DNA of 5,959 nt. It comes from a virus (lineage: Duplodnaviria > Heunggongvirae > Uroviricota > Caudoviricetes). The notes under the pieces were generated by a model, which did not search any database, was not told the DNA's origin, and was given only the letters and a program-made list of their open reading frames with translations. This document shows positions 2,383 through 3,008 of this stretch, piece after piece. How positions within the stretch are numbered: position 1 is the stretch's first letter; each line of letters starts with the position of its first letter. The position numbers and the translations under genes were made by a program. The DNA lies in IMG/VR virus record IMGVR_UViG_2681813320_000011; one strand, written 5' to 3'.

Positions 2383-2511
2383 CATGGTGTTCACAGAACA
2401 CACAGTTACCGGACACATCAGTTTTCCATTCGTCCCCCGGCAGTACAGGCTTCCCGTCTGACGGGATAGCCTGAAAAAACACAGAAAATTATTTGTTATA
2501 ATTAATATAAC

Positions 2512-2652
2512 TTACTCAAAAAAAAGCGACGAGAAAATCAGCATCAACGAGCAATAAGCGCCAATACGTGATAACAAATGGCAGCCATATTTATCTGCAG
2601 TATAAGCAATGGACAGGATAACCACACCAGAAACCGTCAGCATAAAATCCAT
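2512..2652 (-). CDS. Candidate 46-aa hydrophobic membrane peptide (hypothetical)
   Basis: ATG at 2652-2650 to TAA at 2514-2512, giving MDFMLTVSGVVILSIAYTADKYGCHLLSRIGAYCSLMLIFSSLFFE with two hydrophobic stretches. It is below the ORF-track length cutoff and was found by hand. Upstream GGGGAAG is a possible SD. No recognisable family. Confidence 0.25.
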   Translation of the reverse strand: MDFMLTVSGVVILSIAYTADKYGCHLLSRIGAYCSLMLIFSSLFFE

Positions 2653-3008
2653 TTGAACTTCCCCGGACAAAATCGACTCATCTAAAGATTTACAGCTCTT
2701 TTTATTATCAATATGTTAAAAGTAAAATAAACAGATGTTCAATAATACGAATACAAAAACGTGCTGAAAATCAATGAATCCATTTCTGTGTTATCAATTA
2801 ATAGTGATAAACATCCGGCTTCTTCCACCATCGCACCGGACCAGCGACCATGAGGGGACAACGCCGCGCTCCGTTAACGCGGTAAACCCCGGTGTGTATC
2901 GTTTTTGATTATCCCCGCACACTCGCGCAGAGGATTCTCCCGGTCGGGCTGCGGTCTCTGTTAATGCAGGAATACGGCGACAATACCGCGCATGAATAAT
3001 AAGGTCGC

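What the first reader, a model, noticed from the sequence alone, without database searches (positions are those of the whole stretch)
2383..3008. Gene-poor AT-rich island with a candidate 46-aa membrane peptide and a consensus TATAAT
About 620 bp between the RHH gene and the ORF downstream of Rz carry no ORF over 60 codons that looks protein-like. The segment around 2470-2810 is markedly AT-rich relative to the flanking phage genes, which suggests a separately acquired moron or regulatory island. It contains a hand-found minus-strand ORF (2512-2652) encoding a 46-aa hydrophobic peptide, and a perfect plus-strand TATAAT at 2497-2502 positioned so that a plus-strand transcript would run antisense across that ORF. 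That geometry resembles type I toxin-antitoxin loci, but it is speculation from sequence alone. A weak minus-strand promoter candidate (TTGAAC at 2742-2737, TAACAT about 18 bp downstream) lies upstream of the small ORF.
Basis: partly seen in the sequence, partly recalled or inferred. Interest (0 to 1): 0.5.

Follow-up and report, generated by a model that had tools for sequence, protein, structure and literature searches.

The report
Prophage cargo island with small membrane-protein gene
The AT-rich stretch is an optional cargo insert found in about one in seven complete E. coli genomes' lambda-like prophages; it carries a real but uncharacterised 46-residue membrane-protein gene, shows no good evidence of being a toxin-antitoxin pair, and sits next to a separate, widely conserved RNA-like hairpin element that phage lambda also has.

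Summary
The interval holds two unrelated things.

(1) 2383-2821 is an AT-rich cargo island. GC is 0.32 at 2470-2810, the lowest in the window. It lies between ynfO/ylcI and a conserved block in 734 of 5426 complete E. coli genomes and is missing from close relatives. Its minus-strand 46-codon ORF (2512-2652) is annotated by PGAP (WP_000347013.1). ORF length, hydrophobicity and the TATAAT are not beyond chance on their own. The ORF is intact in all 151 fetched copies. Four lineages down to 71% aa identity give dN/dS of about 0.25 in that frame only. A Shine-Dalgarno site and a promoter-like core (TTGAAC-18-TAACAT) are conserved upstream. It is best read as a moron-type gene for a two-helix membrane microprotein, also carried on the Q-dependent late transcript. 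It has no homologue outside E. coli prophages.

The type I toxin-antitoxin idea is not supported. The antisense TGTTATAAT occurs in one of four lineages, there is no terminator, and no toxin or antitoxin family matches.

(2) 2809-3002 (GC 0.56-0.58) is a different element, conserved in lambdoid phages including lambda (46858-47037). Its consensus fold is supported on the late-mRNA strand, and it has no Rfam family.

The parts
2383..2821 (.). AT-rich cargo (moron-like) island. The left junction actually lies inside the 3' end of ynfO (about 2350); the right junction is at about 2813-2821.
   Evidence: GC is 0.367 overall and 0.317 at 2470-2810. The island is present or absent between ynfO and the conserved block in relatives. 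It is in 734 of 5426 complete E. coli genomes. It always sits between ynfO and the block in 80 IMG/VR loci, whatever the flanks.
2512..2652 (-). orf46: a 46-aa protein, MDFMLTVSGVVILSIAYTADKYGCHLLSRIGAYCSLMLIFSSLFFE, predicted to form a two-helix hairpin.
   Evidence: PGAP CDS WP_000347013.1. Intact in 151 of 151 fetched copies; 8 use GTG as start, and the only length variation is at the C-terminal T-run. dN/dS is 0.23-0.28 between deep lineages in this frame; the other five frames give 0.33-1.8 and contain stops. Synonymous changes are enriched, p = 0.006-0.008. AlphaFold2 gives helices 2-22 and 24-45 at pLDDT 76. There is no family in Pfam, PHROGs, NCBIfam, PADLOC or PDB.
2658..2664 (-). Shine-Dalgarno-like GGGGAAG, 5 nt upstream of the ATG.
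   Evidence: Read from the sequence. GGGGAA is kept in 3 of 4 lineages; L152 has GGGTTA.
2697..2745 (-). Conserved AT-rich core holding the candidate sigma-70 promoter of orf46: -35 TTGAAC at 2742-2737, an 18-nt spacer, and -10 TAACAT at 2718-2713. A plus-strand TTTACA-17-TATGTT overlaps it.
   Evidence: The core is 92% identical to SHP24, where neighbouring non-coding DNA is 61-75% identical. The -10 is invariant and the -35 is TTGAAC or TTGAAT in four lineages. The scan lists the overlapping plus-strand site and a second minus-strand site, TTTTCA-17-TATTAT at 2770-2742. Three sites were found against 2.2 expected, so the consensus matches alone are not significant.
2494..2502 (+). TGTTATAAT, an extended -10-like site pointing antisense into orf46. 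Probably fortuitous.
   Evidence: Single match in the window, expected 0.17, with 32 of 200 shuffles giving at least one. Absent from 3 of 4 lineages.
2446..2473 (.). GC-rich hairpin CAGGCU..AGCCUG in the ynfO-orf46 spacer. Not a canonical terminator on either strand.
   Evidence: Seen in the MFE fold. No T-run follows it on either strand. The inner stem is broken by 2456G>C in the commonest haplotype, and the spacer is only 61% identical in SHP24.
2809..3002 (-). Conserved lambdoid block, a candidate structured RNA on the late-mRNA strand. It has a long irregular hairpin (2986 to 2896, 27 bp), a small variable hairpin (2881-2865), and hairpin B (2841-2813, 7 bp, invariant loop GCGAUGGUGGAAGAA).
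   Evidence: 94-100% conserved where the flanks diverge. Present in 398 phage records and in lambda at 46858-47037 on the late strand. RNAalifold and pair counts on 57 variants: 98.5% of cells paired, 7 pairs with double changes, and 0 of 500 shuffles reach the score. Strand asymmetry: 98.5% against 87.9% paired, and 231 GU against 8 AC cells. Alifold z is -6.2 on the minus strand and -2.9 on the plus strand. No 3-base periodicity of variation. No Rfam hit.
2197..2382 (+). Context: the ynfO/ylcI (DUF3950) gene, convergent with orf46.
   Evidence: Pfam PF13132 at 8.7e-20 and NCBIfam YlcI_YnfO_N. PGAP annotation.
3009..3233 (-). Context: a 74-aa late-strand ORF between Rz and the block. It is optional.
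   Evidence: PGAP CDS WP_000735655.1. phrog_2571 at 2.8e-28. Absent in L003-L005, where the block abuts Rz.

Best explanation
Positions 2383-2821 are a moron-type cargo insert in the right-end slot of a lambdoid prophage. This slot runs from the lysis cassette to cos and is the same one that holds bor in lambda.

The insert carries one small gene, orf46, on the late-gene (minus) strand. The gene has a Shine-Dalgarno site and a conserved AT-rich promoter-like core upstream.

Shown here: the insert is optional, it is compositionally foreign, and it spreads as a unit among different phages. The ORF is kept intact and evolves under purifying selection in its annotated frame.

Inferred from established lambda biology (Q-antiterminated pR' transcription of the lysis, head and tail genes): the late transcript must cross this region to reach the HNH and terminase genes. 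orf46 is therefore transcribed late in lytic growth.

Inferred from the conserved core: orf46 probably also has its own sigma-70 promoter, which would allow expression from the prophage.

The product is predicted to be a 46-residue helical hairpin inserted in the inner membrane. I commit to a membrane-acting accessory protein that benefits the lysogen or tunes infection, for example by blocking superinfection or modulating a host membrane protein or lysis timing. I do not think it is the toxin of a dedicated type I toxin-antitoxin pair. If antisense control exists, read-through from the convergent ynfO gene is a more likely source than a dedicated small RNA.
For: Optional cargo:
- The island is absent or replaced in 569R3, Stx2_EH2201 and ASU11, while the flanks align.
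- It is present in 734 of 5426 genomes at 97.5% identity or more, plus a rare lineage at 80%.
- In IMG/VR loci it is 95-100% identical (98-100% over orf46 and its upstream region) while ynfO is 88% and Rz 84-91% identical. It occurs next to both HK97-type (HNH) and lambda-type (Nu1) packaging modules.
- It is the lowest-GC stretch of the window.

Coding:
- PGAP calls the ORF.
- 151 of 151 copies are open. An ATG to GTG start change is tolerated in 8 copies.
- Four lineages (100, 91, 74 and 71% aa identity) are gap-free over the first 45 codons; length varies only at the C-terminal T-run (45 or 46 aa).
- dN/dS is 0.23-0.28, with Sd 12 against Nd 12-13 on 33 against 102 sites, p = 0.006-0.008. 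This is lower than in any other frame.
- The ORF is 81.6% identical to SHP24, against 61-75% for adjacent non-core DNA (Fisher p = 0.0015).
- Substitutions are mostly conservative: V/I, S/A, F/L, M/I.

Expression signals: GGGGAA is conserved 5-6 nt before the ATG. The core 2697-2745 is 92% conserved, with an invariant TAACAT and TTGAAC/T at 18 nt spacing.

Fold: two helices at pLDDT 76.

Context: all late genes in the window are on the minus strand. The convergent ybcW-ylcI pair of K-12 is reported as an overlapping-transcript 'excludon' (PMC12288877).
Against: - ORF length and hydrophobicity are what the T-rich composition gives by chance.
- Only two deep lineages exist, so the selection test rests on about 25 substitutions. 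A simpler permutation test was only suggestive: ORF retention P = 0.33 and BLOSUM score P = 0.07.
- The closest pair (window against L151) shows 3 nonsynonymous changes to 1 synonymous.
- Promoter-like hexamers are not enriched over shuffles in this AT-rich DNA. A plus-strand promoter reading of the same core cannot be excluded.
- No terminator follows the gene, which is unlike textbook morons.
- No expression data were found.
- There is no homologue of known function, so the specific role is a guess.
Confidence: 0.6

Rival explanations
1. Type I toxin-antitoxin locus. orf46 would be a membrane-damaging toxin whose mRNA is neutralised by a plus-strand antisense RNA started at TGTTATAAT (2494-2502).
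For: The ORF is small, hydrophobic and under selection. A perfect extended -10 sits on the opposite strand, placed so that transcription would start at the ORF's stop codon. The locus is prophage-borne, as hok, ralR and zor-like loci are (own knowledge).
Against: - The antisense promoter is absent in 3 of 4 lineages that keep the ORF. It is removed by a 10-nt deletion in the L151/P0019 type, whose protein is on record on 152 contigs, and reads TCTTATGAC in SHP24 and L152.
- No terminator-like site lies on the plus strand downstream.
- The plus-strand fold is no more stable than shuffles, z = +0.23.
- No Pfam toxin family and no Rfam antitoxin match at E of 1 or less.
- The 10-nt inverted repeat 2478-2487/2783-2792, which could mimic hok 5'-3' pairing, is not kept in SHP24 or L152.
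- The locus is single-copy rather than tandem.
Confidence: 0.1
2. The island is non-coding filler or a regulatory spacer. orf46 would be an untranslated chance ORF that looks conserved only because the island spread recently. The conserved core would serve something else, for example a plus-strand promoter or a nucleoid-protein site.
For: A 46-codon ORF arises in 45% of shuffles, and the hydrophobicity is compositional. 732 of 734 genomes carry near-identical copies, so most 'conservation' is recent ancestry. A plus-strand TTTACA-17-TATGTT overlaps the core. There is no homologue anywhere else.
Against: dN/dS is about 0.25 specifically in the annotated frame, with significant synonymous enrichment. 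The ORF is more conserved than its flanks. The start codon and the reading frame over the first 45 codons are kept across about 20% nucleotide divergence and in 151 of 151 copies. The Shine-Dalgarno site is conserved.
Confidence: 0.2
3. orf46 is a lysis-cassette accessory with no role in the lysogen. It would be a small membrane protein made only from the late transcript that adjusts holin or spanin timing. The AT-rich upstream core would not be a promoter.
For: The gene is co-oriented with holin, endolysin and Rz and lies directly downstream of them. No terminator isolates it. Another small hydrophobic ORF (3732-3881, phrog_4906) already sits inside this lysis cassette.
Against: The gene is dispensable in many otherwise similar phages. 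The conserved AT-rich core upstream is hard to explain without a regulatory role. There is no similarity to any holin, antiholin or spanin family.
Confidence: 0.1

Closest known systems
Lambdoid phage morons: lambda bor (same genomic slot) and HK97 gp15 (a small inner-membrane superinfection-exclusion protein). Own knowledge; Juhala et al. 2000 is cited in PMC4104026.
   Same: Extra DNA sits between two genes that are adjacent in relatives. The base composition is atypical. The insert lies in the lysis-to-cos slot where bor sits in lambda, phage 21 and PA2. The product is small and membrane-targeted. A promoter-like element lies directly upstream.
   Different: There is no sequence similarity to Bor, gp15 or any family. 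The gene is co-oriented with the late operon, whereas bor is opposite. There is no flanking terminator. Expression from the prophage has not been shown.
Type I toxin-antitoxin systems: hok/sok, ldr/rdl, tisB/istR, zorO/orzO, ralR/ralA.
   Same: A sub-60-aa hydrophobic ORF in horizontally acquired DNA. In the window's own lineage, a strong -10 element is placed antisense to it.
   Different: The antisense promoter is not conserved with the ORF, there is no terminator, and no toxin or antitoxin family matches. Two predicted helices rather than the usual single transmembrane helix. Toxicity is untested.
Convergent-gene 'excludon' ybcW-ylcI in the K-12 DLP12 prophage (PMC12288877).
   Same: A ylcI/ynfO-family gene converges on the neighbouring cargo gene with a short spacer and no clear bidirectional terminator.
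   Different: The partner gene is unrelated: ybcW against orf46. Overlapping transcription at this locus is inferred, not observed.
For the 2809-3002 block: long imperfect RNA hairpins that act as processing or stabilising sites in phage polycistronic mRNAs, such as T7 RNase III sites and lambda sib (own knowledge).
   Same: A hairpin of about 27 bp with internal loops lies between functional modules of a long late transcript. It is conserved on the mRNA-sense strand.
   Different: There is no sequence or Rfam relationship. Cleavage has not been tested. The single-sequence folding energy is unremarkable.

Membership tests
Type I toxin-antitoxin system | Small (under about 60 aa) hydrophobic, membrane-active toxin ORF | tested here: inconclusive
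   The ORF is 46 aa, has GRAVY 1.11 and two predicted helices. The hydrophobicity equals the compositional expectation, and membrane activity is untested.
Type I toxin-antitoxin system | Antisense or overlapping small RNA gene with its own promoter, conserved together with the toxin | tested here: not met
   TGTTATAAT is present only in the window-type lineage and is lost in the L151, SHP24 and L152 types. By chance it appears in 32 of 200 shuffles.
Type I toxin-antitoxin system | Defined 3' end (intrinsic terminator) of the antitoxin RNA | tested here: not met
   No plus-strand terminator-like site lies in 2100-3400. The fold of 2505-2930(+) gives z = +0.23.
Type I toxin-antitoxin system | Homology to a known toxin protein family or antitoxin RNA family | tested here: not met
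   Pfam, NCBIfam, PHROGs and PADLOC give nothing at E of 1 or less. Rfam 15 gives nothing at E of 1 or less in the whole window.
Type I toxin-antitoxin system | Growth arrest or killing on toxin overexpression, relieved by the RNA | not testable with these tools
   Needs cloning under an inducible promoter.
Phage moron (Hendrix/Juhala sense) | DNA present between two genes that are adjacent in related phages | tested here: met
   In 569R3, ynfO abuts the conserved block. Stx2_EH2201 has unrelated filler at this position. The window, O104:H4 and SHP24 carry the island.
Phage moron (Hendrix/Juhala sense) | Nucleotide composition different from the surrounding phage genes | tested here: met
   GC is 0.317 against 0.507; this is the window minimum.
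Phage moron (Hendrix/Juhala sense) | Own promoter upstream and terminator downstream, giving autonomous expression from the prophage | tested here: inconclusive
   A promoter-like core is conserved, but consensus matches are not above shuffle expectation. No terminator was found. No expression data were found.
Rfam RNA families (for the 2809-3002 block) | Covariance-model match to a curated family | tested here: not met
   cmscan of the window at E of 1 or less gave 0 matches.
Protein-coding gene (for the 2809-3002 block) | Three-base periodicity of variation and an ORF conserved across variants | tested here: not met
   Variable columns by phase are 16, 14 and 19 of 31, 31 and 32. The plus-strand ORF is truncated in 7 of 57 variants. 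The minus-strand ORFs differ in frame between phages.

The most novel reading that the evidence does not exclude
It lies just after the lysis cassette (and bor, where present) and before the cargo and packaging genes, and it is present in phage lambda itself at 46858-47037. It could be an RNase III-type processing or stabilising site that separates lysis-gene mRNA from morphogenesis-gene mRNA, or the precursor of a processed small RNA. A less likely novel reading of the island itself is that orf46 is the founding member of a new prophage membrane toxin or exclusion family.
Probability: 0.4. Interest if true: 0.6.

Novelty: new member of a known kind. Interest (0 to 1): 0.33.

Why it matters
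orf46 is carried by roughly one in seven complete E. coli genomes, including O157:H7, O104:H4, O55:H7 and O103:H2 lineages, yet it has no family, no homologue outside E. coli prophages and no known function. Small membrane proteins in this cargo slot (bor in lambda) have a record of changing host phenotype, so the gene is a cheap knockout and overexpression target. It does not by itself open a new question.

The neighbouring conserved block matters more. If it is a functional RNA, then the late operon of lambda, one of the most studied transcription units in biology, contains an unannotated conserved RNA element. That element can be tested directly in lambda with existing tools.

Tried and rejected
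- Family and structure searches on orf46 found nothing: Pfam, PHROGs, NCBIfam, PADLOC and PDB sequence search.
- Homologue searches found only E. coli prophage copies: the 5.8-billion-protein word search, the 1.84-billion-representative HMMER search, and GTDB species representatives. The long repetitive proteins P0014-P0017 are treated as low-complexity noise.
- Known prophage small RNAs do not apply. Anti-sRNAs (AsxR, AgvB) and the Pas sRNAs map to the pR' moron site upstream of the holin, not here. None is detected by Rfam in this window.
- Literature searches for the peptide sequence or the WP accession gave nothing. Supplements of the Sakai RIBOseq and EDL933 transcription-start papers contain neither the peptide nor the promoter strings.
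- A hok-like 5'-3' fold-back using the 10-nt inverted repeat 2478-2487/2783-2792 was rejected. It is not kept in SHP24 or L152, and one such repeat is expected by chance at this size.
- A 30-codon upstream ORF (2831-2739, minus strand) is open, with the same stop, in all four lineages. Its dN/dS is 0.45-0.5, the same as in another frame, so it was not accepted as coding.
- Reading the conserved block as a protein gene on either strand was rejected. Reading it as the bor promoter or 5' UTR is disfavoured, because the structure signal is on the opposite strand and the block persists where bor is absent.
- I looked for terminal repeats or target-site duplications that would mark the island as a transposable element and found none convincing.
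- I did not run a fold search with the 46-aa model, because a two-helix hairpin gives non-specific matches.

Full report
**Setting.** The window is the late region of a lambdoid prophage of pathogenic E. coli. It is 100% identical over 2150-3300 to many O157:H7 chromosomes and 99.6% identical to phage PPyecE_EH1910. All late genes are on the minus strand. In order they are: holin, a YdfR-like gene, lysozyme, an antirepressor-domain gene, a 49-aa ORF, Rz, a 74-aa ORF, then the interval in question, then HNH endonuclease, small terminase and large terminase. Only the ynfO/ylcI (DUF3950) gene at 2197-2382 is on the plus strand.

**Checking the observation.**
- Positions 2470-2810 have GC 0.317 against 0.507 for the window. 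This is the lowest 341-nt stretch; the next lowest elsewhere is 0.437.
- The minus-strand ORF 2512-2652 is real and is a PGAP-annotated CDS, WP_000347013.1.
- The plus-strand TATAAT at 2497-2502 is part of a full extended -10, TGTTATAAT.
- TTGAAC (2742-2737), 18 nt, TAACAT (2718-2713) is correct.

Three of these features do not exceed chance on their own.
- An ATG ORF of 46 or more codons arises in 45% of dinucleotide shuffles of the island.
- The peptide's hydrophobicity (GRAVY 1.11) is no higher than that of shuffled versions of the same T-rich strand (mean 1.25).
- One or more TGNTATAAT sites appear in 32 of 200 shuffles of the window.
- Promoter-like sites are not enriched (3 found, 2.2 expected), and no canonical terminator lies in the spacer.

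**The interval is two things.** Alignment with relatives splits it at about 2821. To the left is the AT-rich island. To the right (2822-3005, GC 0.58) is a block that stays 94-100% identical even in a relative whose island is only about 80% identical.

**The island is optional cargo.**
- It is present in 734 of 5426 complete E. coli genomes, nearly always at 97.5% identity or more, usually once per genome.
- In phage 569R3 a ynfO variant abuts the block directly. Stx2_EH2201 has an unrelated AT-rich filler of about 200 nt. ASU11 lacks ynfO too.
- In 80 IMG/VR loci the island always lies between ynfO and the block, but the surroundings differ. Some loci have HK97-type packaging genes with an HNH endonuclease and others have lambda-type Nu1/A. 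Some have the 74-aa ORF and some do not. ynfO is 88% identical and Rz 84-91% identical, while the island is 95-100% identical, and 98-100% over orf46 and the sequence upstream of it.
- The left junction is inside the 3' end of ynfO, so the island also supplies a different YnfO C-terminus.
- In lambda, phage 21 and PA2 this same slot holds bor on the opposite strand.

This fits the moron concept, except that no terminator was found.

**Is orf46 a gene?** No family or homologue exists outside E. coli prophages. The evidence is therefore internal.
- All 151 copies in fetched loci are open. Eight use GTG in place of ATG. The only length changes come from the T-run at the last codons.
- Four lineages were found: the window type, an L151/P0019 type (91% aa identity), SHP24 (71%) and a metagenomic L152 (74%). 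They align without gaps over the first 45 codons; only the C-terminal T-run changes the length (45 or 46 aa).
- Nei-Gojobori dN/dS between the deep lineages is 0.23-0.28 (Sd 12; Nd 12-13; 33 synonymous against 102 nonsynonymous sites). The other five frames give 0.33-1.8 and contain stops. The synonymous enrichment has binomial p = 0.006-0.008.
- The ORF is 81.6% identical to SHP24, whereas the spacer to ynfO is 60.6%, the 5' leader 68% and 2746-2821 75% identical (Fisher p = 0.0015).
- A cruder permutation test was only suggestive: ORF retention 0.33 and BLOSUM score 0.07. The shallow window-L151 comparison has 3 nonsynonymous changes to 1 synonymous.
- A GGGGAA Shine-Dalgarno site 5-6 nt upstream is kept in three of four lineages.
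- AlphaFold2 without an alignment predicts two helices (2-22 and 24-45) broken at Gly23, with pLDDT 76.

I conclude with moderate confidence that orf46 encodes a two-helix membrane microprotein.

**Regulatory signals.** The best-conserved non-coding part of the island is 2697-2745 (92% against SHP24). An overlapping plus-strand TTTACA-17-TATGTT and a second minus-strand site (TTTTCA-17-TATTAT) also exist. The core is probably regulatory, but the strand cannot be proved here.

Independently of any local promoter, the Q-dependent late transcript must cross the island to reach the HNH and terminase genes. This follows from established lambda biology; see also PMC10695390. orf46 is therefore on late mRNA.

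**The type I toxin-antitoxin idea.**
- The antisense TGTTATAAT is confined to the window-type lineage. A 10-nt deletion removes it in the L151/P0019 type, whose protein is on record on 152 contigs. SHP24 and L152 have TCTTATGAC.
- No plus-strand terminator follows it, and the plus-strand fold is unremarkable, z = +0.23.
- No known toxin or antitoxin family matches.
- The 10-nt inverted repeat flanking the unit is not conserved.
- If antisense control exists, read-through from the convergent ynfO gene is a simpler source. The K-12 ybcW-ylcI pair is listed as a convergent excludon (PMC12288877).

I put this rival at about 0.1.

**The conserved block (2809-3002).**
- It occurs in 398 phage records, among species representatives almost only in Escherichia, and in lambda itself. 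A covariance model built from 57 distinct variants hits lambda 46858-47037 on the late strand, between bor and lambdap78, at 119.6 bits.
- RNAalifold on the late-strand orientation gives three elements: a long irregular hairpin (27 bp; window 2986 to 2896), a small variable hairpin, and a 7-bp hairpin with an invariant 17-nt loop (2841-2813).
- 98.5% of cells pair, and 7 pairs show double changes. Examples are G-C to U-A at 2837/2817 in 14 variants and C-G to G-C in lambda. No shuffle of 500 reaches the score, and slid registers pair only 31-59%.
- The signal is strand-specific: 98.5% paired as minus-strand RNA against 87.9% as plus-strand RNA, and 231 G-U cells against 8 A-C cells. Alifold energy is -35.4 (z = -6.2) on the minus strand against -16.6 (z = -2.9) on the plus strand, using column-shuffled controls.
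- Variation shows no 3-base periodicity, and ORFs on either strand are not conserved.
- Caveats: the sequences are closely related mosaics (effective number 1.53). Single-sequence folding energies are not better than shuffles, z = 0.0 for the window and -0.9 for lambda. The consensus structure was derived from the same alignment on which it was scored.
- There is no Rfam family, and I found no literature on it.

I regard a functional late-mRNA structure, such as a processing or stabilising site or a small-RNA precursor, as plausible (about 0.4) but unproven.

**Verdict.** The 'separately acquired cargo island with a small membrane-peptide gene' reading holds. The type I toxin-antitoxin reading does not.

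The gene is an orphan member of a familiar class (moron-encoded small membrane proteins) and is already annotated as hypothetical, so interest is modest.

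Noticed in passing
window 2809-3002 (minus strand); lambda NC_001416 46858-47037 (plus strand): A conserved block of about 190 nt sits downstream (in the late direction) of the lysis cassette and bor in many lambdoid phages, lambda included. Its consensus RNA fold is supported by compensatory and G-U-only changes on the late-mRNA strand. 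It has no Rfam family and no coding signal.
   Followed up: yes
window 1575-1696: Five copies of GTTAACAT, in both orientations, lie between the HNH endonuclease gene and the small terminase gene (expected 0.2; 0 of 200 shuffles reach 5). They are followed at about 1728-1790 by G-run and C-run sequence. This looks like the terminase-binding/cos region of this HK97-type packaging module.
   Followed up: partly
window 2739-2831 (minus strand): A 30-codon ORF (MVEEAGCLSLLIDNTEMDSLIFSTFLYSYY) starts at an ATG inside the invariant loop of hairpin B and ends at the -35 of the orf46 promoter candidate. It is open with the same stop in all four island lineages, but dN/dS is about 0.5 and no better than another frame. 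Phage 21 annotates a 45-aa ORF from the same ATG.
   Followed up: partly
window 3732-3881 (minus strand): A 49-aa strongly hydrophobic ORF (phrog_4906, 1.5e-30, unknown function) lies between the antirepressor-domain gene and Rz, inside the lysis cassette. PGAP annotates it as hypothetical.
   Followed up: no
window 3009-3233 (minus strand): The 74-aa ORF after Rz matches only positions 100-172 of the 291-column phrog_2571 profile. It is optional between Rz and the conserved block, and it may be a fragment of a longer gene.
   Followed up: no
window 2350-2382; alignment A3 columns 200-245: The last 10 or so codons of ynfO differ between phages that carry the island and those that lack it. The recombination junction of the cargo therefore lies inside the ynfO coding sequence and changes the YnfO C-terminus.
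   Followed up: partly
protein cluster of orf46: Many database entries for this protein are partial (25-44 aa) because draft-assembly contigs end inside the gene. This suggests the locus is a frequent repeat or mosaic boundary among co-resident prophages.
   Followed up: no
L001 5569-7151 (O157:H7 PV15-279), equivalent to window 4718-5251: In some otherwise identical O157:H7 prophages the lysozyme gene is split by an IS1203/IS629 insertion. In this window it is intact.
   Followed up: no
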